Made by a program: the position numbers and the translations under genes. A DNA stretch of 64,000 bases, taken from contig NMRA01000881.1 of the NCBI GenBank assembly GCA_002633005.1, positions 1 to 64,000 of the forward strand, given 5' to 3'. The notes under the pieces were generated by a model that saw only the letters and a list, made by a program, of their open reading frames with translations, did no database searches and had not been told where the DNA came from. Shown here piece by piece: positions 1,926 through 58,716 of this stretch (position 1 is its first letter; the number at the start of each line of letters is the position of its first letter). This DNA comes from Phoronis australis (taxonomy: Eukaryota; Animalia; Phoronida).

Positions 1926-2639
1926 TTAAAATAATTTCGATTGTGTTATTTATAGTTGTTTTACAATCAACGTGTATTTGTCTTTTGTTAAATTTTACGG
2001 TTTTTGAGAGACAGTGCGCAGAAACCAGGTGTGAAACAGTGCACATGAACAAAGACAGATGTATGAATGACTGGCAAGTAGATACATGTATTTCACTTTC
2101 CTTTTCCAAATCAAACAAGTGTTCGGTAAAGTTTTGATGGCTCGTATAACTTCCATGCAGTCGAAAGTGAAACTTCCAGGATGTTTATAGCTGAACGGTA
2201 CCATACCTTTTTACTCTGGTGTCATCCTTGTACGTGGTATAACGTGCTCGCATTATCAGATCCCGCACGTTAATGATATACTGGTCAGCCAAGGTCCAGT
2301 AGTTCGAAGAAAGGCCAAATCCCTAAAATATACACCTTCCAAACGATTCAAACGAAGTCAGCCCCCTGTACAGAATGAACTGATCTGAAATGAAAACTTC
2401 AAATGAGAAAGAGTGTAGGCAGAAAGTATGAAATCAAGGTATTCGTGGGTTCGAAAGTTTTCAAGTCCAACAAGAGCAAGCGGAGCATTGAAATGCGGTG
2501 TTCTTTTAAGGGTGTTTTTGGTATCATAAAAATGGCCATTAGATGGTGAACAATTTGTCAAACCCACCGAATTGAGAAGGAAATTCTAACATATAAGGAA
2601 AACATAAAAACAAATGAAACAAGGTGCACAGCTATAGTC

Positions 2640-3940
2640 CGATTGGTCTGAAACCGGTATTCTGTCGCCATCTCTATAGAAGTCTGCCAAATTTCGCCGT
2701 AGATGCAAAAATGCAAAATTTCCCCTCAAGGAGGCCAAAATAGTCAAAAACATCTGTAGGTCAACATAGTCTAGGGTCTTCGCATCAGGAACACAATTGT
2801 CAACTTTCACAATCTTGGCAGATATAGATGCAGACGTCCAAAAACCTTTGCAAAAAATTTTAATGGACAATGGGTGGCACAAGAAATTAAAAATCTGCCC
2901 TCAAATTATGTGATGTTGTCTTCTTAATAGCAACTTATTTGCCGAATTTCATGAAATTACATTTATGAACTCCGAAGATACAGAGGTAAACAAAAAAGTA
3001 TTTTGCCACCAGGTGGAACAGTAGTATTTGGATCAGTTCCGACATTTGTTGCTATTTGGCATCGGCTCCGTAGGAACACATCGTTCAAATGTCAAAGCTC
3101 CTTCGGCCTCAAACACAGTAGTCGGACCCGTCGTAGCCTGCAAATTCTAGTAATCATGCTTTAAGCGGCATGGCAGTAAGCAGTGAACGCCAGAAAATGG
3201 ATGCAGGTGGCGTACAAAACATCAGATCTGTCGAAATATTGGAATGGTTTGTCATCTCAGTAACAGAAATCTAACTGCCGAATTCATGAAAATACGTATT
3301 ACTGAAATCCGAAGATGGAGATGCAAACGTAAAAAAACATTCTTGGAGCCACAGTGATATCTAGACAAGTTCGACATTCGTTACCGTTTGTCTACTGCTC
3401 CATAAGAATACATTTTTCAAATTTCACTAAGCTCCTTCAAAGGGTTGAGGAGATTCGGCAGCAGACGAAAAAAAAAGAAAATCGCTACCAAGGGGCGACA
3501 GGTCGGGACCGTCTGAAAGTCGACGTCAGTCGTGGCCTTCTCATCAGCAACACCTCTATGAATTATTATAATGATCCTTTGAACGGTATGGCAGATAGAG
3601 GAGCAAGTCTAAAACGGATGCAAAAATAAAAAAATGTCCACAAAGTGGCACTATATTCATCGAATCTGTCCGAAAATGAAACAACATCATTACCCCTGTA
3701 TCAAAAACCTATTTGCCGAATTTCATAAAAATCCGTCAAGGAACTCCAAAGATACAGAGGCAAACGTAAAATGCTAAGATTGCCACCAGTCACCAGTCGT
3801 CACATGGGAATACCTCTTCAAAATTTCAATAACGGATTTAGGAGATACAGCCGCTGGTGCCGTACGCTGGAAGTCCGGAAGTCCAGGTGTTCGGACCCCC
3901 GGACGCCCAGACAGAGATGACGGCACCCTGCACCCACGTA
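2640..3940. mobile_element. Non-autonomous repeat family with internal subrepeats (Helentron/HINE-like, class uncertain)
   Basis: Recurring TGCCGAATTTCAT...GATACAGAGG..AACGTAAAA...GCCACCAG subunits; terminal-type motifs near 3120-3151 and 3478-3512; CGGA-type simple repeats at about 3870-3915; an inverted family member lies at 25090-25410. Confidence 0.45.
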
Positions 3941-6900
3941 TAAGTCACAGTTGGAGAACTGTAGCTGCAAGTGTCAGCCAAACTAAAATATTATCAATAA
4001 CGACAGTTACACAACTCTATCGTCCTTCATGTATCGAAGAAGACAGCATCTCTACGTCCACGCCCTCGTAGAAGCAATTTCTGGGATTTTTTTTTTACTT
4101 TTCCGACTCAGGTGTCTTTTTGTGTTGGTGGAACAGCGATATTGTTGGTTCGCTACCAGTGCTGGTGAGAGTCCTGCTTATTCAGGTCCTTTCTGGCCCT
4201 AGAAAAAGCGTCAACATTTCTCTTACTTTGAAGGTTTATATCTCAAAAAAACAGTTCAGATTCATGCAAGACTTCCAAAACTATGATTTAAACGCCGAGG
4301 TATTCCTCGGTCTGAATTATAGCTAGATCAAAAGCCCGTCAATACAAAGATCCACACAAGTCCAAAGTCTATCAGTTCGAAAGCTAAAAGTTCGAACTTC
4401 CATGGCATGCGCTTCTGAAAAGTGACCTCGAGCAGGAGGAGTGGAGTGTGGAGTTATGTGCATGTGCCTGATTGAAACTAAATCTTCGAAGTACTAGTAC
4501 CTCCCAAAAGGATACAAACAAAATTTGGCAATGATTACTGATCTGCAACATATATTAACATTTTAAAATTTTTGGTTTAGAGCAACTAAAACTTTGCTGC
4601 TCTGCTGTGGATGACATTGAATCACAAGTTTCTGGTATCATAGCTCTTCGTACTACTATCGAACTAATTAGCTTGATCATTCGGATTTACAAGCCTTTTT
4701 TAAAACATTTTCATTTGTCGCATTATTTGCCTTTGGACTTGTACACCTTCGAAGTATTGAGCTCTATCCTATTCATACTAATGCACAATGACTCTCAAGC
4801 AACGTTAGATTATCTTCTGAATTATAGTCTTCCGTTGATAAGTCTCTTCTTCGATCCTTCCTTTTCCATTCTCCTTCTATCCTTTTGGTTATCCGTGGGT
4901 AACAACGCATCATTGCTGTGTGAGTATGACGAGTAAATCGACAAAAACGTGCATTAATAAAATTTACAAGCAATTGAGAAATCTACCATTGTTTTCAATT
5001 TGACACTTGTATAGTAATTTAAAATTCTGTGTCCCTGCCAAGGCAGAAATCGATTATTTGAACCACTGCTCGGCTCCATCTGGCTGTGGCGTCTGCAGGG
5101 GAATTTAAATAACACCATTCAGGATGCATCTTGTGACCTTGAACGACGTTTGGACTTATCCATGCTGCCATTCTTTGTGTATTAGGGCTTGTGTTTGTGT
5201 GTTAGTGTAATCAAATTTTCCTTTACCGCCACGAAAATCGATCATTTTAAGTCGCAGGTTTATGGTCTCATAGACCTTTAGACTAGTTTTGAACTAACTA
5301 GCTTTTCCTTCGGTCGGGTTTGTGAACTTTGGGGCGCATAGGGCCCTTTTAAAAACTTTTTCTTTGTCGCATAATTTGCATTCTGACTTTTGACAGGTTG
5401 GAGTATCGAGCTCTATCTTTTTTACTAAGCCGATATGATTTGCAAGGTACGTAATATTACCATCTTGATTTTATTCTTTGGTTGTTGATTTTCGTCTCCC
5501 ATCCTTCTTGTTCCGTTTTGGTTAACCGTGGGTCGCGTTCATTCATGGGCAGGGCGAGTAAATAGAAAAACACGTGAATTAATAAAATTTACAAACAATC
5601 AAGAAATCAACTATTTTGTCAATTTGCCACTGGGATACAAATTAAAAAATCTGTTTCCCTGCCTCGGCAGTAATCTTCTCACTGGATCCACTGCTCAGCT
5701 CCATCCGGTTGTGGCATCTGCAAAAGCATTCAAAAACACCAATTATAATGTATTTTGTGACATTGAACGTCATTTGAATTTATTAATGCTGTCTTTCTTG
5801 GTATATTAGGGCTTGTGTTAGTGCAATTGTTAGTCGGGATTAGACAGAGCGTTAGCGTCGCCACGAATATATCAGAGAGACAAGTAACAAAAATCTAGAG
5901 CAAACGAATAGTAATAGATTTAATGGATGGAGACATCCATCCATTTGAAGTGTGTTTGCGTCATCACGATCCAAACAGTAAAACCCAAATATTATCTAAA
6001 GTTCAACTAAAATACAGCCAACACTTAAAATCTTTTACAATGACTTGGATACCACACAGTTGTCACAGGTGGAGAAATGTAACTGCAAGTGTCAGCCCGG
6101 TCAAAATCTTACTAATGACGAAAGTTACAAACCTCTATCATGCTTCACGCATCGGGTTAGTCAGCAACTCATGAGTTTCCGAGATGTTTTTACCTAACTG
6201 GTGTCGGTTGTTCAGCGACATCTTTAGTTCACTGCCAGTAATGGCGATGTGAAGGTCCTGCTTGTTCAGGAGCTGTATAGCCCTAGAAATAATGTCTACA
6301 ATTCTCTAACTTTGAACGTTTACATCTCAGAAATTACTGTTCAGATTCATGAGCAAATTTTAAATACTGTGATTTAAATAACGTTCACAAATCGAAAATA
6401 AAATCATCATATTTTAGAACATTAACAGTGTTTCCAAGATCTTTTCTCGAACAATTTTATTAAATTAAATTCGATCTTGTAATTGATAACACTGTTTTAC
6501 TATCAATGTGCCTTTACCTTTTGCCAAATAATTTCGTTTGTTCAGAGACTGTGCCCTGAAACCGAGTGTGAAACAGTATAGATGAATGACGACAGATGTC
6601 TGGATGACTGTCAAGTAGATTTTTTACGTCGCCTTTCCAAATCAAGCAAGGGTTTGGTAAAGTGTAGATGGCTTATATAACGCACATGCAGCGGAATCAT
6701 GTATCTTCCAGGATGTTTACCGCTGAGCGTCAACTTGCGTTTGGGCTCTGGTGTCAATCGTGTAAGTGGTGCTGCCGCATCTTTGGTACACTGTCACTGC
6801 TAGATACATCAGATACCGCATGTTAATGGCATACTAGTCAACCAAAGTCCAGTGGTTCGATGAAGTTAAGACCAGGTCCATAAAAACCTAAAATAAGTTT

Positions 6901-7458
6901 CAAGCGAAGTCAACCACTTGTAAGTGTTGAACATGTTATGTGCTCTGAATTGAAAACTACAACTGAGAAAGAGTGCGAACAGAAGGTATAAAATCACAGT
7001 ATTCTTCGGTACGAAGGTTTGCAAATAGAAAAATACCAAACTCCAAATGGAAACAGTAGTCGAAAAATCATCTCGAGAACTAAAACTTTGAACTTTCATG
7101 AATCAGATTTTGAACAGAGATTTCATGCAAATGATTCGGAGATTAATATGCACGTGCCTGTTAGAAACTACTTCTTGGAAGTACCATGCGGTCAAAGCCA
7201 CCTCCAAGAAGAGTAAAAAGTGATAACAAGGATCGGCTGTGCCTAACACGTTGAAAACTTCAGTTTAATGATTGTTGGAATTTCAAATTTATTTATTTTG
7301 AAGTGTAAATTGTATTAAACAAAGACATTTGATTAGGAAAACAAAGCGACGCCGCTGCAAAAGAGGAAAAACATCGAAAAACTGGATTTCTTGCAATCCT
7401 GGTTTTGCATAAGATAATATTCTATCGCAAAATAAATAAAATAGTGATTTTATTCATA

Positions 7459-8178
7459 CCGTATAGCCACGCAATTAGGCGCATATGCTAAATTTCTGGA
7501 CCGCGCCTAATTGCAGGATTTAGGTGTATGCGCCTATGTACGGGACATATGAGTACAGCTTGCATTGATTATGGTGCTTCGGATATAGGCACACCTTAAA
7601 TATTTTTAGGAAACACTCCTAGTTTACACATGCATTATAGTGCAAATTCTTTATCGTAACCAAAAGTAAATGTGCAAAATAATGACGATAAATGCATTTA
7701 ACAAGGTAACATTAATTTCTAATGACATACCACCGAAGAACCTGTACTGCTTGTTCGTGTGGGCAGGAAAATAAGTCCACGAATTGGACGTGAAATCCAA
7801 TGACATGGTAGTAGATTAGTCAGGTTGAACAATCACGATTCGATTGCAGTTAAAACGTTGTAGCACTTAGGTAATTTCTAGATGAGACAAAAAAGGTTTA
7901 ATTAGACGTATGTCATTAATCAGAATATAGCTTCTAATGAGTTTTAAGACTGTTTACTTTTACAGTTTAATTGTTCCTGTACTCACCCAGAGTCTCACTA
8001 ACGCCACACGCTGTGTGAAAGTGAGTGTATTTTTTAAAATCATTTAAGGTGCACCTGCGCCTAATTGCGGAACTTAAAGGCGTGCACCTGTATGCGGAAT
8101 ATTTGAGTAAACGATCTTGCAAAATACATTACAATGATCCGCATATAGGCGCGTGCGCCTAATTGCGGAGCTATGCGG
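7459..8178. mobile_element. Tc1/mariner-pogo-type MITE, about 720 bp
   Basis: TIRs CCGTATAGCCACGCAATTAGGCGCA / TGCGCCTAATTGCGGAGCTATGCGG; TA on the left, TG (decayed TA) on the right; repeated GCGCCTAATTGC subterminal motifs. Confidence 0.8.
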
Positions 8179-9488
8179 TGATAACTTGAACTAACAACTG
8201 AATACCATTCAACCACTCCCCATTTAGTCCACATAATAGCCATCAAACCAGACTCAGACATGTTTTCATTTTAGAAGAGCTAAACACGTCAAAATCAGAA
8301 ATTTTACTCTCATTGAAATCGATCAAATAAGTTCAGAATATCATCCAATGTCATTAAAATGTATCAATTAATCCGAAACGCCTCCCAAAAGACCTCATCA
8401 CTTCAATTGCATCGTAAGTGATTGTAATAATGCAAGCACTGTTTTTGCGATACCTTTACGATAACAAAAGAAATGCTCTGCTTTCTGCGAACGTGACCAC
8501 ACGCCTAAAGAGATGCACTAAAACCTTCAGCGAAAAATAAAATTATTGATCTACTGCAAAGTGGACACTCCATGATAACAACGTTTTTTCGAGATATACT
8601 CTACCAAAAATCTCGTAAGTGAACATGACCTCCCTGGTATAGAGATTCCCTAAAACCTGTAACCGGGGTATAAAACATTCAAGGAGCTTTGAGGTTACAC
8701 AGGCAAAAGTTAAACAATTGAAATTGCCACTAGGGAAGGTAAGAAATCACTGCATTCGTGGCTCCCAAGGTTTGCAAGTCCGACAAAAATGCATAAATCC
8801 GAAGATCCATATAAGACGATAGTTAAAAATTTGAATTTTCATGACGCGAGGCTCTGATCAGTGACCTCTGATCAGTGACTTTGAGCAAAATGTTCGAGGA
8901 TTGATGTACGCGCGCCTGTTTGAAATTTGTTCCTCGAAGAGCCAGTGTCTCTCAAAATGATTCAAACAAAGTCCGGCAATGAGCACTGAGCTTTAATTGT
9001 GTCGCATTTAGTTGAATTGTCAGAGTTTCGTTTACCGCCAATAACATTTTGCTGCTCCACTGTCGATGAATTTGAATTGTTAGATTGTGGTCTCATAGAC
9101 CCTCCGACTAGTTGCAAGTTAAATAGCTTTACTTTCTGTCGGATTTGTGAACCTTCGGCTTTTATAGGGCCATTTTGTGTCAGATTATGGGCCTCCGGAG
9201 TTGTGAACCTTCAGATTATCGAGTGACTTATACCAAGGTATTATGACGCGCAAGTAACGTTAGATTACCTTCTTAATTTTAGTCTTCGGTTGCTTATTCA
9301 TCTTCCATCCTTCTTCCGTTTCGGTTGTCCCTGGGTCACAGCGTATCGTTCGGGTATACGTGTGGCGTGTCAAAAGACAAAAACGTGCATTAATAAATGT
9401 TACAAGTAATAAAAGATTGTTTTCAATTTGCTATTAGAATACTAGTTGAAAAATCTTTGTCCCTACTTCGGCAGTAACATATCACGGG

Positions 9489-9581
9489 AACTACTGCTGA
9501 GGGCCCCCATGGAAAGCGGTGTAAACTGATGGGATTACCCTCATTGTAAATATTGCATTAAACAAATAAAATAAAAAATAA
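9489..9581 (+). mobile_element. 5'-truncated LINE 3' end (L2/Crack/CR1-type stem-loop plus A-rich tail)
   Basis: Absent from the paralogous copies (ACTGCT.GCTCCATC is contiguous at about 5065 and 5690); hairpin GAGGG-CCCAT..CGGT-GTAA-ACTG-ATGGG..CCCTC, then AAATAAAATAAAAAATA. Confidence 0.7.
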
Positions 9582-11175
9582 GCTCCATCCGGTTGTTGCA
9601 TCTGCAGAGGAATTCGGTTAACACTTTTCAGCATGCATTTTGCGACCTTGAACGTCATTTGGGTTTACTCATGCAGTCATTCTTAGTATGTTAGTGCAAT
9701 TGTTAGTCGGGGTCAGAGAGAGCGACGCGAACGTGTCAGCAAGACAAGTAACAGACGCCTAGTACAAGCCAATGATGATACATTTGATGGATAGATGGTT
9801 AGATCTATCGTTTGAAATACATGTGCGTCATCACGACGCAGAGTACAACTAAAATACAGTCCACATTTAAATATATTACAACGACCTGGACACCACAATG
9901 TTGTCACAGATGGAGCACTGTAACAGCAAGTATCAGCCAGACAAAAATGTGATCAATGACTGAAGATACGTACCTGTATCGTCCTGCGTGTATCAGGTAA
10001 GACGCCATCTCATAATGCACGCCCTCACGGAATTAGCGGCAATCTGACACAGCAGGCTGTCCCACTCAAAATGAAACATTTCATTTAGTCATCCCATTAC
10101 ACCTCGGGAGGGGTTATCGGATTTTCCAATAAGCTGTTAGCACTTACAAACCGTTTTATTAGTAATTATTTAAAGTTTTACTGAAATTGCTATGAAGTTA
10201 CAACTGCTGAAAAAGAAATTTACAAATTCAACCAAGGCATTCAATTGAAGTGCAGTTGCAGGATACCCACGTCGTTACACCATCCACATCAATAAACCCG
10301 TCTTTTGGAAATACTGAATACCGAAAGAGTGCTATCAATGGGAAGCGTGACACGTGTGATCCTGCAGTGAAGAGATCAGAGAGATCTTCTTGGGAATGAA
10401 TGGAGTGCTTTCAAAACTAAACTGCATGGGGGCTACGACGAAGTCAGATACGGGTCGTGTGTCAGTCTTGATTCGTGGACAGAGATTTGCCTTAAGGTCA
10501 TGGTCCCTCAAACAACTGACGGATGGGTTGGTGTTTTTATTTCCTGTCCGTCAACTTTCAACATCATTTCTTTCGATTTAGTACAACTCTATTGTTTTCC
10601 GCTATTATGCTGTGCCCTCCCGTTCACGCCGGGATTAACGCGAACCCTGTCAGCGGTATCATGAAAATATCCATAGGCGAAAGAGATACGTAAAGTTTTG
10701 CTATAAATGTGTCTAAATAGTAGAGCAAACTCGAACAACAGCATGTGCGAGTTTTCTATTTCACCTGCTAAAATGGGCCCTAAAAGCAAAACTGGCATTA
10801 ACAAACGCACGTGTACAAGCTGGGAAGCTCAGTGAGAAGCAAATTGTTGAAGGTACTGTATTTGTGTCTTCACACAAGCCATATGTTTGTCACATCACGT
10901 GAAGACTTGTGTCACATACGCAACTTATTACCGTGACGCAATTGACTTTGTTTTTCTGTGTAATTTGCAAAAAGCAACTGTCGAGAAGTAAAATTTGAGC
11001 ATTTGTTGCAAAACTGCATTTTTCCAATGTTACAGTCAGCGTGCAGGGGATAGATCGATTTTCAAATGACAACCACTCATTACACAACACGTGTCTTACC
11101 GAGACTCCTCAGTCACTTGTCTTTGAAAATTTATTATTAGCTACTAACTGGTTAATAAAACAAAATATATGGTAA

Positions 11176-22010: not shown

Positions 22011-22405
22011 TAGTAATGGAAATAGACTCCTTGCTGAGTAAGGAACATTATGAGGCCAATGAGCTTAAGTGACTTGATTAATCATGTTTTAATTCCTGGG
22101 CAGATAAACACTGAGGAAGTGCAGTTTTATGATGCAACATTGTCATTGAGAGTCAGTTGTTGCTTAGGAACAGGCATGGCGGTGCTCTCTAAAGCCGTGG
22201 GTTTGACTGCTTGTGAAATCACAGCTTTTGATTTAATTTAATAACTTGGATTAACCAAATATGGCTGGACATTTTTTAGTGAAAGAATAAACTAGTTGGC
22301 GTGATGTAATTGAAAGCATGAAATTTCACTAATCACTTCACGTCAAAAAGTTGATTTGACACTGAAACTCGTCTGATTGCACTCCACGGCTTTGACTTTG
22401 AAAAT

Positions 22406-24142
22406 GCTTTGTTATGATTTTTATAACAAAATTAAGTTTGATATCGTTCAAGATATAGCTTTCCAGCTGTTTATAGACCCTAATCCTTTCATATCAACTG
22501 TGCTTCATTCAGATATCAAATTGGTTCAAACAGCTTGGTACCTTGCTCCATTATAGCTGTTTTGCACACCAGTAATCGTTTCAACTTAAAGATGTATTTA
22601 CATGCTCCTAACCATGTTAATGTATAGCAGAAACTAAATGACAATGTTGTTTTACCATAATCTATGCTAAATAAAGTGCAATTGTATTCACTGAGAACTT
22701 TTAAATGTGAAAATAAAAAAATCTGCAAATGGGTGACCTTTGTACTAATGACGTACATCGCGGGCTCACATATCCCACATCATGCAGTGTTATTCCCCAG
22801 CACCACGTCACGGTACTTACTGGACACGATTCAATGACAAAAATCGTCCTTAAAAACATCTTGCACTTGCGGCAATACAACCACCCTCCACAACAACCAA
22901 CCAACCAACTTTTGGTTTAGACTGTTATTTCTTTAGTCAAATTGGAGATTATTTATGGGATTTGGAAGAACTGACAGTTCGTTATTGCTTGAGACTAGGC
23001 TCCAGCTTTTAGTTGGCTTGTAACAACGTGTCATTTTAGATGCTGAGCAGGATCCCAAGGAGTAAGGCACAGACAAATTTTACAAACCTTGCACCTGAGT
23101 AACGAACAAGTTGAGACCATGTTTACAGCGGTAAGTGGTCTGAGACATGTTCCCAGCTTGAACGGAACCCAGCTTCAACTAACCGTTATGAACCTCTTAA
23201 GTTGGGTGACAGGATTAGGTGTGCTGGCGGTTAATGCGTAGCACAGCTGTCTTCACGCTATTAGACAGCCAAANGCTTTGTTATGGTTTTTATAACAAAA
23301 TTAAGTTTGATATCGTTCAAGGTATAGCTTTCCAGCTGTTTATAGACCCTAATCCTTTCATATCAACTGTGCTTCATTCAGATATCAAATTGGTTCAAAC
23401 AGCTTGGTACCTTGCGCCATTATAGCTGTTTTGCACACCAGTAATCGTTTCAACTTAAAGATGTATTTACATGCTCCTAACCATGTTAATGTATAGCAGG
23501 AACTAAATGACAATGTTGTTTTACCATAATCTATGCTAAATAAAGTGCAATTGTATTCACTGAGAACTTTTAAATGTGAAAATAAAAAATTTTGCAAATG
23601 GGTGACCTTTGTACTAATGACGTACATCGCGGGCTCACATATCCCGCATCATGCAGTGTTATTCCCCAGCACCACGTCACGGTACTTACTGGACACGATT
23701 CAATGACAAAAATCGTCCTTAAAAACATCTTGCACTTGCGGCAATACAACCACCCTCCACAACAATCAACCAACCAACTTTTGATTTAGACTGTTAGTTC
23801 TTTAGTCAAATTGGAGATTATTTATGGGATTTGGAAGAACTGACAGTTCGTTATTGCTTGAGACTAGGCTCCAGCTTTTAGTTGGCTTGTAACGACGTGT
23901 CATTTTAGATGCTGAGCAGGATCCCAAGGAGTAAGGCACAGACAAATTTTACAAACCTTGCATCTGAGTAACGAACAAGTTGAGACCATGTTTACAGCGG
24001 TAAGTGGTCTGAGACATGTTCCCAGCTTGAACGGAACCCAGCTTCAACTAACCGTTATGAACCTCTTAAGTTGGGTGACAGGATTAGGTGTGCTGGCGGT
24101 TAATGCGTAGCACAGCTGTCTTCACGCTATTAGACAGCCAAA
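22406..24142 (+). repeat. Direct duplication with 869-bp period, joined at a single N (probable haplotype-overlap assembly artefact)
   Basis: 22406-23273 vs 23275-24142 differ by roughly a dozen substitutions; the N at 23274 sits exactly at the junction. Confidence 0.9.
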
Positions 24143-25089: not shown

Positions 25090-25410
25090 CTGCTGTGGCG
25101 CCTCCTAGTGGAAGTCTTTTTGCGTCTACGGCTGTAACTCCTAATCCGTTTGCAGGATCTTTACAAATTTAGTAAGGGTATACAGATGTTAACAATGGAG
25201 GACGACGCCTTTCGGACAGATCTGACTACTGGTGTGCCACCTAGTGGCAATTTTATTTTTTTTACGTTCACCTCTGTATATTCAAAGGTCCTCAACGTAT
25301 TTTAGTAAAATTTGGCACACAGGCATCTGTTAATGAGGTGACGCTATCTCTCCGTTTTCAGATGGATTCGACGTACTTTGCGCCACCTAGTGTCCATTTT
25401 TTCTGTTTTC
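25090..25410 (-). repeat. Inverted copy of the repeat family at 2640-3940
   Basis: GCCACCTAGTGGC..TTTTACGTTCACCTCTGTAT..AAATTTGGCA is a reverse-complement relative of 3640-3790. Confidence 0.6.
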
Positions 25411-25801
25411 GAGTCTGTTCCGTCAGTGGTAAAAGCTGAAAGCAATACTTTGGAGTCAGTTGTAGCATGATTTGAGTAAGGTTTTGAAGTCTTTGGTCCA
25501 GTATAACGTTCAATCATATTTTTAAGGTTACGTACATCCTGTGGAGCAGACTGTTGGAGCTGCCAAAAATTGCTTTTTCAAGTCCAAAATCAGCAAAAAC
25601 TGTTGAGTGTCAACCAAAGTTTTGTTTGTTGCCATTGGTGGTTTGGTGTTGAGAATAAGCTAACTTAGTTGTCGGCGAGGTTACGTTTCCATAAGTCACG
25701 TGGGCTGTCACCCATTAATGTTCCACAAAGCTGATTGGTAGCCTAGTTCACATAAGACGCCATTAGGCTTAAAAGTGAATATTTGTTTCACATTAGGCTT
25801 G

Positions 25802-25807
25802 TTTATT
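25802..25807 (-). terminator. Polyadenylation signal AATAAA of the peptide gene
   Basis: AATAAA on the minus strand 25 nt after the TAA stop at 25833-25835. Confidence 0.55.
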
Positions 25808-25832
25808 CTGACATATATTCCCGGGTGTACAT

Positions 25833-25956
25833 TTAGTCGTGAGGTCTATCACATTTCTTTATGTTCAGCAAGCACTTAAATCCTTGATCTGCACAGTCAC
25901 TGTCCCTGTTGCAAGTTCGTCGAAAATTCACCATTCCGCTTTCCTTAGCAACGAAC
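25833..25956 (-). CDS. Exon 2 of a small secreted Cys-rich peptide precursor: (R)FVAKESGMVNFRR-TCNRDSDCADQGFKCLLNIKKCDRPHD*
   Basis: Acceptor TTCATGTTTGTGTCTCAAG|G; phase 2 matches exon 1; dibasic RR followed by C-x5-C-x6-C-x6-C; AATAAA downstream. Confidence 0.7.
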
Positions 25957-26454
25957 CTTGAGACACAAACATGAATGATGGTCGTACACGTATATTTCTC
26001 TAAGACGTAATTGGCTGGAACGGATATCTCGATTGATATGCCAGAAACCTTGCTCGAATACCATAATTTTCTCATAAACCATAAGTTTCCAAATGCAGTG
26101 TAAAGAAAGATTTCGTTTGTTGTAACTAGACACGTACTAAATAATGTGAAGTTGGTGCTGAGTCTTGTCACCGGTCAGGCGTAAAGAGAAGGGCGGTTTA
26201 TAAGACGAGAAATTAATTCGTAAGAATTGAATTGTTGTTGATGACAAAAGAACTACAGTTCGTAAGAAAACAATATAGTAGTGAAACGGCCGCTGTTCAT
26301 ATGAGAAAGACCGTGTAGGCCTTGAGAGAGTTAAGTTGTCTATCACTCGCCCGAGTTCGAGTATCACAGCGTTTGCAAAAAGAGGGTACACCTGAATTTC
26401 CAATACCCAAGTCGAAAATCACGCGATCCGCAACATTTCAGCAGATATAATGTT

Positions 26455-26650
26455 GACTTTATTTTATTTATTTTTTGCTGTAAATAAGTTTATTTGCAGA
26501 AACAGAAAATTAACAATGGAATACAATAAAAAGGAAAACAAACAAACAAAAACACATTCACTCTCGCATTTACACATTTTATTTTTAATTAACAAAGGAC
26601 AGACAAGACTGGTGAACTTATAGGGCTGCTACAAACCTTGCTCTGGTGTG
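26455..26650 (-). mobile_element. Probable LINE 3' tail within the intron
   Basis: Minus strand: CAAGGTTTGTAGCAGCCCTATAAG..CTTGTCTGTCC, a T-rich tract, AAATAAAC, then AAAAAATAAATAAAATAAA. Confidence 0.45.
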
Positions 26651-26817
26651 AGAATGCTCTTCCAAAGCAATGCGATCACTAGTTCATAGGATGAAACTAA
26701 CGGGTCATAACAGCCCGGTCTCGGTCTCAAATTGCTCTTCATTCGTGTGTTGCAAGATGAGGCCAAGTGGGCTGTATCAAAAGTTGCTTTTCCAATAGAG
26801 GGCACACCTTTACTGAC

Positions 26818-26897
26818 CTACACTGTTCACAAACGAAACCACTGAAAATCCACAACTGAAACCACACGGTGAGCCAATTTGGCGTAAAGCGTGACAT
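26818..26897 (-). CDS. Exon 1 of the peptide precursor: MSRFTPNWLTVWFQLWIFSGFVCEQC (signal-peptide-like)
   Basis: 26 codons plus AG, then donor AG|GTCAGT; hydrophobic/aromatic core; TATA box about 90 nt upstream. Confidence 0.65.
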
Positions 26898-26987
26898 CAG
26901 TGACCTCAGCTGACTTGTGCCCTGCTACTGAGAAGGACGATGTTGATTAACTCAATGATCATTCATTTTGTCCCAGTGGAGACGACC

Positions 26988-26994
26988 TTTTATA
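26988..26994 (-). promoter_or_regulatory. TATA box (TATAAAA) of the peptide gene
   Basis: GCATATAAAAGG on the minus strand; an Inr-like TCATT lies about 35-40 nt downstream. Confidence 0.55.
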
Positions 26995-28665
26995 TGCCGT
27001 CAAGCTTGGTTAGCAGTGTTTTATTCAATAGCCTACTTATAAGTAACAGATTAATGAAGTAAATTGTCGAGCTACTGATCAAGTATGTGCAGCCGACAAA
27101 CTACCCCGTTATAAGTGCTAGGATAAATTCGCCGCCAGTAGTGCAAATCGACCAAAACTTTCAATAAAAAACACGTAGTATGTATTAAATCAATAGGTAG
27201 CCCCCATGAAGTTGGCCAAATGGCGGAATGTCAGGTGCGTAAATGTTTTAGGCATTAGGTAATTAAGGTTACCTGTCTGAAAAAAATTATTAGGGGATAC
27301 TGAGAACACTGAAGTGAACTGGACCTTATGCTTTCTTTTTTGTCTATTGAGTCGTTAAAAGTAGCCCAGTTTTGTTTATCTCAATTGCCGCCTCCAATAG
27401 AGGAGTTTCCAGAATCATCCAATCAGCTTCAGATTTCATGAATGTTTCGAGGCCACTTCCAGTGAATAGCTGAAAAATTAAGTCACGAATCTCCATCAAA
27501 TTTGCAGAACATGAAAGCGGAAACCTATTGATTTTGGTGAATCGCGATAGGAGTAGATATATTTTTTAATTTTTGGGTTCACGCTATGTTCCATCTCCTT
27601 GACCATTGCTCAACCACTAAAAATCTGCTCACTACATTATCTCCATATATGAATATCTCATTCACTTTTATGTGACGTCACGAATAATAACTGAAATAAG
27701 ACTATTCGTACATAATAAATTATTCTAAGTTTTCCGATTGTGATTGGATTAGCTATATAATGTTAGTACTGCCGGGATAGCACATGACCCTTGTTATACT
27801 ATTTCGCCCATGATATCCTTATGAGAAACCTAGTGTTGTCTTACGTAAATATATTTCATAAGGAAGTAGTGGAGAATCTTGAGGTCGCAAGTCGAGTTAC
27901 AGATTGAAGTCCCAAACGGCTGTACATTATCCATAATGCCTTAGTTCAGCCAAGGGTGGCGCTGTACAGTTTGCAAGTAGATTCAATGAATCTATTTTTT
28001 GTGCTTGCAAAGAGGTTGTGAATAAGAAAAGTCCACTAGTTCGGCTGTAGGCGTCTTTTTTTCGAAAAGGTGGTTCCTTAGAGCAGTGCTGCATTGAAGT
28101 TCTGCGACTGAGGAATCTGTTACGATTTCAAGTAGCCCTAAAAAATCCAAAATTGGCGAAAAATGGGATTAGATGGGATCTCTTGGTTTCACTGCGTTGA
28201 CGTTTCCAGCTCTATGTGTGGAACGTAAGTCAGCTCTGTATGAATCATTAAGATAAGGTAAGACCCAGCGACCAGCTTCACATTGACTTGACAGTTTATT
28301 TTAATTTATGTGAATTTAGTTTTTGACGTTTATTTAGCACTGAGCAAACCACAACTCGGGGTCAGACTCAGTCAAATTTCAACACCTTTTTGAGAAATTA
28401 TTGTTCAGTTAAAAATAAAAAGCAAAGTTGAATTGACAAAATATTGTCCTTTTGACCTTCTTATGCAGTAATGTAAACCACAAATAAAAAACAAAACAAA
28501 TTTTGTAAGCAATTTTCTTGTACGTTGTCACTGTATTCTTTGAGCTTTGGCTTTCACCAAGAAACGAAAATTCCATTGTTTCACCGGCTGATTTCTGTTC
28601 TCTTACACGGTCGCATTAGGCCGCAAAACAGTTGTCAATTTTAAAGTTTAGACTTATACTAAACA

Positions 28666-28905
28666 TGGAGGAGGCAGTGCGGCTTATTGTGATAGGTGCC
28701 CGCGTTCTTTACTCGAGGTCGCGGGTTCGAGTTCCACTGGGTCACACTGCTAAAGTCTTGAGTCAGGTTTCTAGTTCCTCAGCACGGTTTTAACTATATA
28801 TTAATCAGGCACAAAAACGGTTCCAGGTGATCACTGCAATGGGCCCACATGCGCTGCCTGCGCACGTCTGGTACAACGTGTATCAGACCGTCTGCAATTA
28901 TTTTG
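28666..28905 (+). mobile_element. tRNA-derived SINE
   Basis: A-box-like GCGGCTTATTG and B-box GGTTCGAGTTCC; exact 12-bp TSD TTATACTAAACA (28654-28665 and 28906-28917). Confidence 0.85.
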
Positions 28906-36299: not shown

Positions 36300-37611
36300 T
36301 ACGGATTCTGTAGCATGGATAGGTTCACATGTTGCTTGGGAAGGTTGTCCTTGCTGCTCGTGTAATACTGTCGCCGATAGTAGCGGGTGCTCTCATGACC
36401 AGTGACCCTTTGGCCTCGTTGGCTTTGAGCATGATTTTTGCACTTGCAGTTGATGTGGCCTTAGTTTTCAGAATTGTGGCCATTGCTCTCTACTGTGTCG
36501 TGGACGCTGATGCATAGTTATTCAAACTTGCTACATTTTTGTGTCCACTGACTTGCCCAATTGTGGTAAGTGGTATGCCTGCATGAAGGAGTTTTGAGCA
36601 CATGGTTAGCCTTACACTGTGGTTGGATTTCTTACCCGGGAAGCCTGCTCCTTGTGACATTTTTCATGAACAAAGCTATTGTGTTTTTCCCGGGGATTGA
36701 TTGTTGTACCATATTTCGGAGTAGAGGGTTTTGCAGTGGTTGATGTTGAGGTAGAAAGGTGAGTCAGGGGTAAGGGTGTTTGGTGGTCCTCGTGATTGGT
36801 AGGCTTTGTAAGTAGCAACGGGGCACCTTGACGGATCTGACGGATGAGCAAATGCTTTTGGATTAAATGGTCTAATGTCGCTGCTAGTGCCGAACCTTGT
36901 TTTCGTCTCCCTTTCGTTGAACTCTAGGTATTAGTTGCCAGATTCGTCATCAAGCAACTGTATGTCTGCCCACTGTAGCTGGCGGATTACATGTGAACCC
37001 CGGAAACTAAACAGTTTGGTATTTAAAAAACCATACAGTGTTGATGAGTTCTTGTGGTGAATGTTTCCCAAGTTGAACTGTACTCCACAACAACTCTTCC
37101 TCGTCATCTGTCAGTAATTCTGCCCTGTTTTTTCGATTGCCTTTTCTCTGTTGTTTCAAGTCCCGCCGACGAGCAAAAAGCACGGCTTTGGAAAGTCGAA
37201 ATGTGGTTGGATTGTCTACCATAGTGACTGGGTAGTCTATTTCTATCAGGTATCGGTCAATGACCCTGTGAAATTATGTTAAAGTGTCAGGCTCATATGA
37301 AGATCCATCGGCATTGCCAATGCCATTAGAAAGCCCGCTACGAGGGGATCTAGTTCTTTCGGAGATATGTCCAGCAACTTTCCGTTTTCATTATTTTCAA
37401 ATAGCCAAGCAGCAAATCTCTTGGTTACACTTGAAGTTTTCTTGACAGTGTTGATTTTTTTTCGGTTGATGAAATCTTTTGCTTCACTTGCCATCACTTT
37501 AAGTTTCTCATTTTGCTTTTCCTGTTGCACCTCCTGTTCTTCTAATTTAACCAACTCCTGAATTTCTGAATCCTCGTATTTTAAATTGAACATTCCAAGA
37601 TTGAAACTCAT
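36300..37611 (-). pseudogene. Crypton tyrosine recombinase (DUF3504/ZMYM-like) remnant
   Basis: NTVKKT..W; KGNRKNRAELLTDDEEELLW..QLGKHSPQEL; FRG; RCPVATYKAY; catalytic NHSVR and GHKNVASLNNY motifs; frameshifts and stops. Confidence 0.9.
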
Positions 37612-38097
37612 TATTTTTGTGTACGGTCGCCGCGCTTCCGTAGTTACAGCGTCTGAGTTGCAGACGCTGTATTTCAGCAAATAAAACGGAGACAAAAGTG
37701 TCATATAATTAACATTTTGTACCAGATGTTATATTTGGTACCTGAGTGCATGTTGAGTGTTATTTATGCAACTTCAGTTTCATTTCTTGAAACTATTTTA
37801 TGAAAGTTTGATGATAGAACTTGTTATCGACGCCCTAGTCTACATTGACCTAATTTTGCACTTTCCACTTTTAACTACAGAGGGCACTGTTAAAAGTAGT
37901 GCCCGGGGTGAATACGAAAAACATTATTACATGGCTGTATTTCCCTCGACAGATTCAACGCATGTGGGATAAAAAAATATCAACTAAATTTGTTCCTAAA
38001 CAGTTTACAGTGATGATAGTCGTAATTTGTGGTCATTTACACCAAAAGTACAATCTTAAGCTCAATCCGTACCAGGCTAACTTAACGTTGGTCTTAA

Positions 38098-39433
38098 AGG
38101 CGAAGGCAACCTTTTTTCATGTCACTTTTAGCTAAAATAAGGTTCGTTGATTATCCCAGACACATTTTTCACTTAATTACAGCTTTTCTTAATTTCATTA
38201 ATTTCTCACTTCTACTCCGGAAGTGACGTTTTGGGAGGCAAGAGTTTCGCGCCAATTTCTTTTCATTATAGTCTGACTGTGAGAGCTGTCGAGTCAGTCA
38301 TTGTTCTACCTCAGTTGTGATAAGTTCGATCGTAAATTGATTTTGTTTACAAGTCAGTCAACATGCCACGCTGTTGCTGCGTGCCGGGATGTACTCATTA
38401 TCGTCTCACACGCGCTTTGCCTGGGTACCTTGCGTCGCTTTCCGAAGGATGACACACTTCGCCGTACTTTGCTAGCTCGTTCATGTGAAGAACGCAGCGC
38501 TACCCGTCCACTCAACGTACAAAGCAGTGGAGGGTTACCGAGTGTGTGGCAAGCATTTTCTGCCGTCAGATTACGACAGAGATATGTACGCTGAATTGAT
38601 GAAGGTCCCTGCGAAACAACGCCTGAAGAAGGGTACCATACCGTCGCTGTTGATTCCCGGCAGTGCCCCGTCGCCAACCCCGAGAAGTGCGTTTTTGAAG
38701 CAAGAAGCCTCGCTAGCTGTGGCTACTATATACAGTGACTGGAGGCACTTCATCTACTGTCACCCGTGCCTCCGAACGTACCCCATTGCGTGCAATTCCG
38801 GGAACTAGCAGTGATTCGCCGTGGGCTGTTGTCTCTGTCCCAGAGCCTGTAAGCAGCCCTGCAGCAATGTTGAGTAGTGGGAGTGAATACAGGCCCAGTT
38901 CGACACCCAGTGAAGAGGACAGTTCGTCATCCAATGAACAGATCGGTGAGCCTAAGTTTGATAAGTTTATTGTGGACTTGTATTGGAGCTATTTAGAAGG
39001 TGCCAGGTGTGTGGCGAGGGGTTCACACGGCGGGATGTAAGCAGTTTGGGTGCTCAGATCACCCTCCAGTGGGAGTGAGTCGCGGGACACTCGGGCAAGT
39101 GGGACAGTTCTTCCTCTGTACGTGAGACGATAATGAGTACACCCCAGTACGCAGCAACAGCGTGGTATGTTGACCGACTCGTAAGCAAAAGCAAACGACG
39201 ACCGAACTTATCACAACCGAGGTACAACAATGACTGACTCGACTGCTCTCATAGTCAGACTATATGAAAAGAAATTGGCGCGAAATTCTTGCCTCCCAAA
39301 ACGTCACTTCCGGAGTAGACGAGGAGTAATTAATTAAATTACGAAAAGTAGTAAATAAGTAAAAAATATGTCTGGGATAATCAACGAACCTTATTTTTGC
39401 TAAAAATGACATGAAAAAAGGTTGCCTTCGTCT
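38098..39433 (+). mobile_element. Kolobok fold-back derivative with two left ends (312-bp inverted arms)
   Basis: TTAA TSD on both sides; arms 38098-38409 and 39122-39433 are inverted copies; AG...CT termini. Confidence 0.9.
38363..39115 (+). pseudogene. THAP-domain Kolobok transposase N-terminal remnant
   Basis: MPRCCCVPGC...RRFPKDDTLRR...RVCGKHF...LKKGTIPSL (THAP C2CH and AVPTIF-like motif), then KFIVD..LLELFRRCQVC...GHSGKWDSS; frameshifted. Confidence 0.85.
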
Positions 39434-42098
39434 TTAATAAATTACTTGAAACGGAGCTAAGGCGTTTTGGTCTGAACCGATTTTTGTCAAAGTTAAGACA
39501 GGAAAAGGTGACATGAAACGGGCCCCTGGTATACCTTTTAATCGTCCTACTCCAAGTCCAACGATAGATCTGCCTTCTCACCGTGAGAGGTCTTCCATGT
39601 GATTTCTGCTTACGGTCTTGCCCATGATGATCGCTCGTGGTTGTCCAGAATATTAGCAGTTAAGCGTTAAGCGTCTTTTGATAACATGGCATTAGTCTGA
39701 TCAATGACTGCGTTTGTTATGTAAGCTGATCACACTAGCACATAATAGTCCATTATGGCATCTAAAGTCCTGCCTTAATTTGTCACATGGTCGAAAAATA
39801 AACTCTGCGACATTTAACGGGAATCTCATGGGACAAGTCATTTGTATCGAATAAAAGGAAATAGGTATTGTGATGGAATCTGATGTTTGTTTGATAATTG
39901 TTAATGTCGTTTAATGCGAAACATGATATGTGTTCATAATTACTAAACTCGGAGGAAAACGTATATTATCTGAATATTGAGATTAGGATAATCTTAGAGA
40001 AAGTCATACCCAAGTATGTACAAAACTGCAGAATGAATTTGGAAAGTAGTGAAGTTTCCATTTATACCGCCTTGTTATTGCTCAGTCAAATGGTTTGCGT
40101 TTAAGTAAACTTTTCAGGAAAGAGAGGTACATTCATAGAAAAACAAGGGCATCTATTTGACATCAATATTCATGATGAAAAACTCGAAAAATTCATGAGA
40201 CCACGAGGTAATAGACATTTTATTCATTTTTGCTTTACTAAATTTTTCGTTTTTTATAAATACTTTAAAAGAACCAATTTTTATATCATCTGGTGACACA
40301 GTGATGTGCCTGAAAAGCATCCCTAGAATATTGTGAAAGTTATACAGTACATAACCTTAGGACTGAAAGGCTAGAATTGGCAGAAGCCTATGTTTTTTCA
40401 ACTTTTGACGATCATTTTTACACCCCGAAAATAAATATCGACATAACATTCTGTGTACCGCAAACTGTATTGTGCTATTTATTATTATTCATCTATTCAT
40501 ATTTTGATTCACGAGTACACAATGATAACTAATTGAACAGTACAGTATAAGAGAAACGGAAATATTTCCACGTAAATGGGTGTACATGTCACCTTTACAA
40601 AATTTCCACAAGGTATCCAATGCAATCTTACTTAATAACACCAGTTACAGCGAGATCTACTTAATTTTAAACCACAATTAAACATGTCCGCAAGGGTAGC
40701 CTCGCTTGGAAAATCTCTTCTTAAACGTTAGTATGTAACACAAATAAAAACAAAGTTTTATCTTTAAGGAAATAGCCATTACAAACTTTATACAATCATT
40801 CAGCGAGCTGAGCCCTGGCGCATTCACCCGTCTCAGTTTGAAAAGGTATAGCGTACATATCTTACCTGAGCCAAAATAGATTTATGAGTAAGGAGAAGAA
40901 AATGGAAGTTTCTACGCAGTAGTCCGAGATTTAACTGTTGCGTCAGATCAATATTTTAGCTTGCTACTACCAATATCTATCCTCGCGTGCTTTTGTCATT
41001 TAACACAGCCCACATGTGAACTCCCAGAAAATCCCTCCGTGCTTGAGATCGAATTTATTCACATTGCAAATAACTAGAAAATCCCCACATTCAGGACAAG
41101 TACTCAATCATTAAAGAGACAGGAGATTCAAATCAGGTGGAGAAAGTGCTATAATCCATATTACCTATAACCTTGTATTTGCACCCAAGAGCCTATCAGT
41201 GATGACGCAACCACTGCTTTGTAGTCAAGATGATCGTTTAATGTTACCTCCAAATATTTTTAACAATTATGCTCTATTTTCGAATCCTCAAAGGTTAAAA
41301 CTCATGGGCCAATTGTGTGTTACTGACTGTGTGAGGTGGTCGTATAGTTGTTAATCTTTCCACAGTCGCCTATAATTGTTTATTTTTCTGCGAGCAATGC
41401 AGTACGCCTAGAGGGGCTCTCGTGATTGTTTTTCCGGAGCATCGACTTACAATAATTGATATTCTGTAATTGGCGAGGACGTGCTTCGACCTATTGATAG
41501 TTGAGAGATGATCACAGCAGAGAGTCACCATGTAATAAAAAGGAAACAGCTAAGTTGTGTTTATTAGCAAGTCCACGATTGATAATATCTAAATTGAGAT
41601 AAAACTAATGAGCACGTCAGTTAACCACGTCCGTTGAGTACATTCGTAAACTTTTCAGGTAATAACGTTATTTGACTGTGGATTTAAGAGAAAGCAGAAT
41701 GACATAAAATTCGAATTCCGTTTGTCGCGTGGCATCAAAATCCGTCAAAACTGACATTGGGATGTGCGGTAGCATTGGCTGCACTTGACTGATTTTGTCA
41801 TTTCCGCGGGTTCGACAAAGTTGTCTAATGTCTACGTCCCTCGTACTCGTTTATCTGACTTTCCACGAGCCTTTATAGCGGGTTAGTGAAAATCACGCCA
41901 TTCTTTCTGTACAGATGTTTACGTAATGACCTGAAAATTTTCTGCTCGAAAATGAATGAGAGGTCATTATAAGAGATGTTCGATATACTCACTAATTATG
42001 CTTCTAATATTATATATGAACGTCGTGTATAGTCACTTTGAATTAGTGCCGCCCGACGCCTGCGCAAATCATCAGCCTCTGTTTACTTCAATTTCAAG

Positions 42099-58395: not shown

Positions 58396-58716
58396 TCAAA
58401 AGCTCAATTCTGTCTTGATAGCTAGTGTGTTTCGGACGGGGGTTTCTTTCAGGATCTTTGAGAAAGCACCCTCAGCTTGCTTGTTGATATTGGTTTCGAC
58501 ATTACGAAGCATTTTCACTTTCCGAGATTGGCTGTCCGTATTAAGCTTATTTACTTGGATGCAAACTTCGTTGAAAACACAACTAAACTTTTTTGTTTGA
58601 AAGCTTGATATAGAGTCGCTCGTAATGTCGAAACAATCTTCTGCGCAGCTATGTAGCAAAACACCGAGACACATAACAAACAAACAAATTGAAACACGAG
58701 CTATATTTTGAGACAT
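58396..58716 (-). CDS. Putative secreted protein, 106 aa; frame extends through two TGA codons to 58204 (170 codons)
   Basis: ACCATG start; n/h/c signal peptide MSQNIARVSICLFVMCLGVLLHSCA|EDC; no homology recognised. Confidence 0.55.
   Translation of the reverse strand: MSQNIARVSICLFVMCLGVLLHSCAEDCFDITSDSISSFQTKKFSCVFNEVCIQVNKLNTDSQSRKVKMLRNVETNINKQAEGAFSKILKETPVRNTLAIKTELSF

What the first reader, a model, noticed from the sequence alone, without database searches (positions are those of the whole stretch)
25802..26994. Complete two-exon gene for a toxin/defence-like DDH-type peptide precursor
Seen: TATAAAA (26988-26994), ATG at 26897, donor AG|GTCAGT at 26817, an 861-nt intron, acceptor AAG|G at 25957 in matching phase 2, TAA at 25833, and AATAAA 25 nt later. 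The spliced product is 67 aa: MSRFTPNWLTVWFQLWIFSGFVCEQCRFVAKESGMVNFRR|TCNRDSDCADQGFKCLLNIKKCDRPHD. Established: signal-pro-dibasic-Cys-rich mature peptide is the layout of conotoxins and many defence peptides. The spacing C-x5-C-x3-G-x2-C-x6-C is one residue off the disulfide-directed beta-hairpin consensus (C-x5-19-C-x2-G/P-x2-C-x6-19-C). Inference: an unannotated secreted 27-aa two-disulfide peptide. Weak points are the AAG acceptor and an atypical signal cleavage site.
Basis: partly seen in the sequence, partly recalled or inferred. Interest (0 to 1): 0.8.

Follow-up and report, generated by a model that had tools for sequence, protein, structure and literature searches.

The report
Silent copy, hidden hairpin-peptide family
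A small two-exon animal gene is predicted to make a secreted 27-residue peptide braced by two disulfide bonds, likely a defence molecule; this copy gave no RNA reads in the samples tested, but related transcripts did, so it is likely a quiet or decaying member of an undescribed peptide family.

Summary
All motifs lie at the stated coordinates. The whole model (TATA, signal-like first exon, in-phase intron, dibasic site, four cysteines, stop, AATAAA) arose in 0 of 400 simulated windows. The mature stretch is predicted to fold as a beta-hairpin (pLDDT 82, versus 54 for one control) that overlays knottin cores, though every match is weak. No sequence homologue was found. No read at 95% identity or more covered either exon, and none showed the splice joint, in three RNA runs (18-19% of each read) and one contig set. 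At 80%, partial reads of two or three related transcripts lay over the stop region. One continues in the exon-2 frame and keeps the last cysteine; two read past the point where this copy stops. So a family is real and expressed, while this copy is shortened and silent in these samples. Toxin or defence function is untested, and strict DDH spacing is not met. The scan noted a similar six-cysteine gene in another genome, but no look-alike sequence.

The parts
26988..26994 (-). TATA box; start of transcription expected near 26963 (inferred from the usual spacing)
   Evidence: sequence; two upstream ATGs at 26966 and 26962
26818..26897 (-). Coding part of exon 1: 26 codons plus 2 nt, signal-peptide-like (uncharged aromatic core), phase-2 donor
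   Evidence: best 12-residue GES mean 1.96; one site obeying the -3,-1 rule, after residue 19; no reads
25957..26817 (-). Predicted 861-nt GT-AG intron with an AAG acceptor; no convincing middle exon
   Evidence: (highest pyrimidine share, 0.71, of 21 AGs examined); splicing not shown
25917..25956 (-). Exon 2, pro-region ending in a dibasic Arg-Arg site (25922-25917); not acidic
   Evidence: 1 acidic and 3 basic of 13 residues
25836..25916 (-). Predicted mature peptide, 27 residues, C-x5-C-x6-C-x6-C, near neutral (pI 6.4), predicted beta-hairpin
25833..25835 (-). Stop codon; two expressed relatives read on past the equivalent place, so this copy's tail is shorter
   Evidence: loose ends read by eye
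25781..25832 (-). 3' untranslated stretch with AATAAA (25807-25802); the part on which reads of related transcripts lie

Best explanation
The locus is a two-exon gene copy predicted to encode a secreted precursor that would be cut after Arg-Arg to release a 27-residue, two-disulfide beta-hairpin peptide, likely a defence ligand, and it is likely a silent or decaying member of a small family whose other members are expressed. Shown: the motifs and their phase, the absence of reads for this copy in four runs, and partial reads of related transcripts. Predicted: signal peptide, fold, and C1-C3/C2-C4 pairing (by overlay on the knottin core). Inferred: because the peptide is near neutral (5 basic, 5 acidic residues), it would act by binding a protein target such as an ion channel or a protease, as knottin-core peptides do, and not by lysing membranes. 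Also inferred: this copy lost its C-terminal extension through a small deletion just before its stop, since two relatives share the longer reading; all four cysteines are intact, so the peptide could still be made if the gene is switched on in an unsampled tissue or stage.
For: Model beyond chance: 0 of 400 simulated windows. Fold: pLDDT 81.9 with a hairpin versus 54.4 for one non-coding four-Cys control; 16 Foldseek rows at E up to 10, mostly cystine-knot peptides, best EETI-II (TM 0.67, rmsd 1.5), versus 0 rows for the control; best VIA row EETI-II, Z 3.5, rmsd 1.3 over 27 residues. Family: relative 1 has 17 reads in X1 and 11 in X2, all in the gene's sense under the usual stranded convention, plus one X4 contig at depth 188. 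Its loose end, read by eye, continues in the exon-2 frame with 6 of 9 residues identical, including the last Cys, and 5 of 9 base differences at third codon positions. Relative 2 (5 and 7 reads) shares with relative 1 a five-residue run that differs only at synonymous third positions. The X4 contig begins 243 nt upstream of the match; the spliced two-exon model predicts about 266. Silence: depth 0 over both coding exons, apart from the last few bases that the relatives' reads overlap, and no joint. Signs of decay: shorter tail, AAG acceptor, no purine at -3.
Against: No positive control that these runs cover unique genes of this assembly: only 4, 0 and 2 reads at 99% or more in X1-X3, X3 laid nothing, and no other host gene was found in the window. 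Only 18-19% of each raw run was read and tissues are unknown. Relatives were seen only over about 65 bases at the 3' end; their first three cysteines and their signal exon were not seen, and one difference in relative 1 is unlisted. Relative 2 reads are antisense. The two relatives also differ from each other in tail length, so a short tail need not inactivate. All structure matches have E above 0.8 or Z below 4, and the control is a single peptide with less similar Cys spacing. The function rests on analogy alone.
Confidence: 0.55

Rival explanations
1. The copy is fully functional but expressed only in a tissue, stage or challenge that these runs did not sample.
For: Every element from TATA box to AATAAA is intact and in phase. 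All four Cys are kept and the fold is confidently predicted. Relative 1 itself is sample-dependent: 17, 11 and 0 reads in X1-X3. The AAG is the most pyrimidine-rich of 21 AGs examined.
Against: 0 reads in about 35 million records and absent from one whole contig set that holds relative 1; derived short tail; weak start context.
Confidence: 0.3
2. The RNA comes from a diverged population or cryptic species under the same label, and relative 1 is the fast-evolving orthologue of this gene, so the gene is active.
For: Most repeat reads were only 90-95% alike and few reached 99%. Relative 1 is 32 of 36 bases alike over the stop region but 18 of 27 alike in the coding end, the pattern of a hypervariable mature region (PMC4558851, passages).
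Against: No reads on exon 1 or its leader even at 80%, where an orthologue's conserved signal exon should lie. Unchecked notes on this genome report spliced reads for other genes.
Confidence: 0.1
3. The peptide reading is a chance arrangement of motifs, and the reads come from a short interspersed repeat.
For: No homologue in any protein collection. The scan covers very many windows and my patterns were post hoc. The reads match only 34-36 bases.
Against: 0 of 400 simulated windows. The loose ends keep the frame, the last Cys and synonymous-type differences beyond the aligned part. No second copy of the exon or its 3' stretch in the window. The fold prediction is far above the control.
Confidence: 0.05
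4. On function only: the family is an endogenous signalling, wound-response or protease-inhibitor peptide family, not a toxin or antimicrobial (confidence is conditional on the family being real).
For: Best fold matches are protease inhibitors (EETI-II, an Ascaris carboxypeptidase inhibitor). The closest precursor layout, sea star KASH2, is injury-induced and of unknown function. Relative 1 has an amidation-type signal after its last Cys, as KASH2 does.
Against: Multi-copy family with a divergent coding end and variable tails, as in mussel MgCRP-I. Language-model neighbours are spider toxins, but at 0.83 or less, a lead only.
Confidence: 0.35

Closest known systems
Sea star KARTESH (KASH1, KASH2) and CHUPA peptides; KASH2 is a single-domain DDH (PMC11891777; outline, introduction, results part 1 and discussion read)
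   Same: Signal, pro-region, dibasic site, four-Cys mature peptide of about 28 residues; amidation signal in some members; no homologues outside the lineage.
   Different: No acidic pro-region here. KASH2 entries 8V2M/8V2U were not among the sequence or fold matches. Their sequences stand in a figure that I could not see, so no direct alignment was made.
Arachnid single-domain DDH peptides, e.g. scorpion U1-LITX-Lw1a (named in PMC11891777; consensus from PMC3381931, passages)
   Same: Four Cys, a Gly two residues before Cys3, predicted hairpin between Cys3 and Cys4.
   Different: Three residues, not two, between Cys2 and the Gly; not among the fold matches; no venom context known.
Two-disulfide cystine-stabilised beta-sheet core of knottins: squash inhibitor EETI-II and its Min-23 fragment (PMC2659701, passages), scorpion lambda-MeuTx
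   Same: Best structural overlays; a similar first loop in lambda-MeuTx at E 0.9.
   Different: Lacks the third disulfide and, by recalled knowledge, the inhibitory loop of EETI-II; no significant sequence match.
Mussel MgCRP-I family (PMC4558851, passages)
   Same: Pre-pro-peptide genes with a phase-2 intron before a last exon that holds the dibasic site, Cys-rich peptide and 3' UTR; short C-terminal extensions; unexpressed frameshifted copies.
   Different: MgCRP-I has six Cys and four exons; here four Cys and two predicted exons.

Membership tests
DDH (single-domain) | Four cysteines in the mature peptide | tested here: met
DDH (single-domain) | Consensus C-x4-19-C-x2-(G/P)-x2-C-x4-19-C | tested here: not met
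   Consensus from PMC3381931; here C-x5-C-x3-G-x2-C-x6-C, one residue longer in loop 2
DDH (single-domain) | Two-stranded antiparallel beta-hairpin | tested here: inconclusive
   Predicted only: strands 17-19 and 24-26 of the 30-residue model, pLDDT 81.9, single sequence
DDH (single-domain) | C1-C3, C2-C4 disulfide pairing | not testable with these tools
   The model output gives no sulfur distances; pairing inferred from the overlay on EETI-II. Pairing as in PMC11891777; PMC4942781 words it differently
DDH (single-domain) | Structural match to solved single-domain DDH peptides | tested here: inconclusive
   Rows listed are mostly knottins, all weak
Inhibitor cystine knot (ICK) | Six cysteines in three knotted disulfides | tested here: not met
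   Four Cys only; definition in PMC4942781. Relatives' full Cys pattern not seen
KARTESH/CHUPA | Acidic pro-region between signal and dibasic site | tested here: not met
   1 acidic residue of 13 in the exon-2 pro part; definition
KARTESH/CHUPA | Echinoderm host and sequence homology | tested here: inconclusive
   Host not established here; no PDB sequence match at E up to 10 for the 30-residue stretch
MgCRP-I | Six-Cys array with adjacent CC; four-exon gene | tested here: not met
Secreted pre-pro-peptide | Cleavable signal peptide | tested here: inconclusive
   No SignalP here; proxy gives an uncharged 12-residue core (GES 1.96) and one -3,-1 site after residue 19
Peptide toxin / defence peptide | Activity on a target and expression in a gland or barrier tissue | not testable with these tools
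   No assay; tissues of the RNA runs unknown

The most novel reading that the evidence does not exclude
A lineage-specific family of naturally two-disulfide, single-domain hairpin peptides, some amidated, in a non-venomous marine invertebrate outside arachnids and sea stars: a further independent home for the DDH scaffold, used as chemical defence, with this locus an active, narrowly expressed member.
Probability: 0.3. Interest if true: 0.6.

Novelty: new member of a known kind. Interest (0 to 1): 0.4.

Why it matters
PMC11891777 calls KASH2 the first DDH peptide outside arachnids and asks for similar peptides in other lineages to settle whether the DDH fold preceded or derived from the cystine knot. 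An expressed four-cysteine hairpin family in another phylum would add such a point and offer a natural minimal scaffold. The layout itself is common, and this copy may be inactive, so the value lies in the family that it reveals.

Tried and rejected
No whole genome is held, so paralogous loci could not be searched. No RNA holder listed for the stretch; the four runs came by species label. Protein searches with exon 2 found nothing: 22-72 residues, 73-2000 residues, 1.84 billion representatives at E up to 0.001, metagenome contigs (272 pattern matches, 0 confirmed). A search with the 3' stretch in the frame that the relatives use found nothing. Pfam gave only LDL-receptor A at E 0.42; PDB sequences gave complement C8 beta and lambda-MeuTx at E 0.27-5.1 for 41 residues and nothing for 30 residues: an LDL-A domain was rejected. 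ESM Atlas hits were 0.83 or less. KASH2 and U1-LITX-Lw1a were absent from both fold lists, which excludes nothing. A middle exon was sought: 4 weak in-frame candidates, none convincing. A longer exon 2 from acceptors 26137 or 26158 is not excluded but gives an unlikely hydrophobic pro-region. By eye, relative 1's tail faintly recalls the end of trypsin-like proteases (recalled motif); rejected because the upstream sequence lacks the catalytic motifs. No second copy in the window, no Rfam family, no tRNA. No look-alike among earlier findings. No paper on such peptides in phoronids or on a lophotrochozoan DDH came up (listings only, open-licence library; supplements not read).

Full report
Observation. 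In the window, 12 stretches fit a loose four-Cys-then-stop pattern (9.9 expected), but only this one also has a dibasic site and AATAAA. Of 4 signal-like first-exon candidates in the window, only this one has a TATA box. The joint model occurred in 0 of 400 order-4 Markov windows, and in 1 of 400 without TATA. The patterns are post hoc and the scan is large, so this argues against chance but does not prove a gene.

Surroundings. The DNA is 36-44% GC and repeat-rich. Pfam on 176 of 177 stop-free frames of 66 residues or more (one with an N left out) gave 5 hits at E up to 0.01: DUF3504 twice, THAP, and two weak DUFs; DUF3504 and THAP are transposon-linked by my recall. No host gene was found to serve as an expression control. 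No genome is held. Unchecked notes on this genome call the host a horseshoe worm, a mollusc or an echinoderm; I did not establish it.

RNA. No run was listed as holding the stretch; three 2026 raw RNA runs and one contig set came by species label. At 90% likeness, 12.8, 11.3 and 11.0 million records (18-19% of each run) and 239,584 contigs gave depth 0 from 25907 to 27926 and no joint at the intron; nearly all laid reads came from a repeat at 25200-25420. At 80% on 25600-27400, 28, 22, 0 and 1 records were laid, none at 95% or more, all only in part, and none joined. They fall into groups. Relative 1: 17 and 11 reads, in the gene's sense if the library follows the usual stranded rule, plus one X4 contig (4,223 nt, depth 188), matching 25802-25837 with 4 differences. 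Relative 2: 5 and 7 antisense reads at 25781-25816. A third type: 2 and 2 reads. A further 4 and 2 reads in the intron look like a repeat.

Reading the loose ends by eye: relative 1 continues upstream in the exon-2 frame, with 6 of 9 residues identical including the last Cys, 18 of 27 bases alike, and 5 of 9 differences at third positions. An amidation-type signal follows its last Cys; this copy has none. Relatives 1 and 2 both carry bases that this copy lacks just before its stop, and share a five-residue run there that differs at synonymous positions only. So the frame is coding in the relatives and this copy's short tail is the derived state by parsimony. Their tails differ from each other (about 23 and 10 residues after the last Cys position, against 5 here), so tail length is variable in the family. 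The X4 contig starts 243 nt upstream of the match, close to the 266 expected for a spliced two-exon message; its 3.9 kb of downstream sequence is unexplained. Limits: only about 65 bases of each relative were seen, exon 1 drew no reads, and one difference in relative 1 is unlisted.

Protein. No homologue by words, by HMMER over 1.84 billion representatives or in metagenome contigs. Pfam, PDB sequence and ESM Atlas hits were below significance. AlphaFold2 on the 30 C-terminal residues alone gave pLDDT 81.9 in the best and 78.9 in the worst of five models, with a hairpin at 17-19 and 24-26. One non-coding four-Cys control from the window gave 54.4. Foldseek listed 16 rows at E up to 10 and none at 0.001, mostly cystine-knot peptides, best EETI-II at TM 0.67; the control had 0 rows. 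VIA-align ranked EETI-II first of 48,161 chains at Z 3.5, rmsd 1.3 over 27 residues, below the level that the tool calls trustworthy. The mature peptide is near neutral, pI 6.4.

Mechanism. Most likely: a TATA promoter drives a two-exon message; the precursor enters the secretory path, forms two disulfides, and is cut after Arg-Arg (25922-25917) to give 27 residues. These steps are predicted or inferred from known pre-pro-peptide processing. A neutral, braced hairpin would more likely bind a protein target than lyse membranes; defence is the likeliest role by analogy, with wound response, signalling or protease inhibition as rivals. This copy is silent in the samples seen and shows signs of decay, but an unsampled tissue cannot be excluded.

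Comparison. It works like a single-domain DDH or cystine-stabilised beta-sheet peptide. It is not filed as a DDH member, because the published spacing is missed by one residue (PMC3381931, passages) and the pairing is untested. It is not an ICK (four Cys; PMC4942781, passages). The closest precursor layout is sea star KASH2 (PMC11891777, named sections), but the acidic pro-region is missing. The gene layout and the silent frameshifted copies parallel mussel MgCRP-I (PMC4558851, passages). Min-23 shows that this two-disulfide core folds alone (PMC2659701, passages). bioRxiv 10.1101/485722 (passages) holds that scorpion DDH toxins arose from ICK by disulfide loss. Figures and supplements of these papers were not seen, and KASH and CHUPA sequences there may bear on membership.

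Verdict. Observation confirmed; interpretation partly supported. A real copy of an undescribed, expressed family of four-cysteine peptide genes; new member of a known kind; interest 0.4.

Noticed in passing
X4 contig laid at window 25802-25837: The contig of relative 1 runs on for about 3.9 kb beyond the matching 3' stretch: a long 3' UTR, read-through, or a merge with a convergent transcript.
   Followed up: no
window 22402-24142: An 872-nt tandem duplicate, 98.5% identical, joined at the window's single N; likely an assembly overlap at a gap.
   Followed up: no
window 25200-25420: Interspersed repeat next to the gene, abundant and strongly one-stranded in all three raw RNA runs, at 90-95% identity.
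   Followed up: partly
window 38094-39437: 317-nt inverted repeats (90%) flanking a weak THAP match (E 0.0018); likely a transposon remnant.
   Followed up: partly
window 36679-37273 (-): Two DUF3504 pieces in separate frames (E 1.2e-08, 6.7e-07); likely a decayed mobile element, by recall.
   Followed up: partly
window 58399-58722 (-): A 108-codon open frame with an early Met and a hydrophobic, Cys-rich start that looks like a signal peptide; no Pfam match.
   Followed up: no
window 25957-26174 (-): The exon-2 frame stays open for 72 codons into the intron, with in-phase YAG acceptors at 26137 and 26158.
   Followed up: partly
window 28680-28760 (-): By eye, a tRNA-like, SINE-type stretch; ARAGORN and Rfam list nothing.
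   Followed up: partly
window 1926-10013: A cluster of diverged direct repeats, most 350-720 nt long and 66-78% alike.
   Followed up: no
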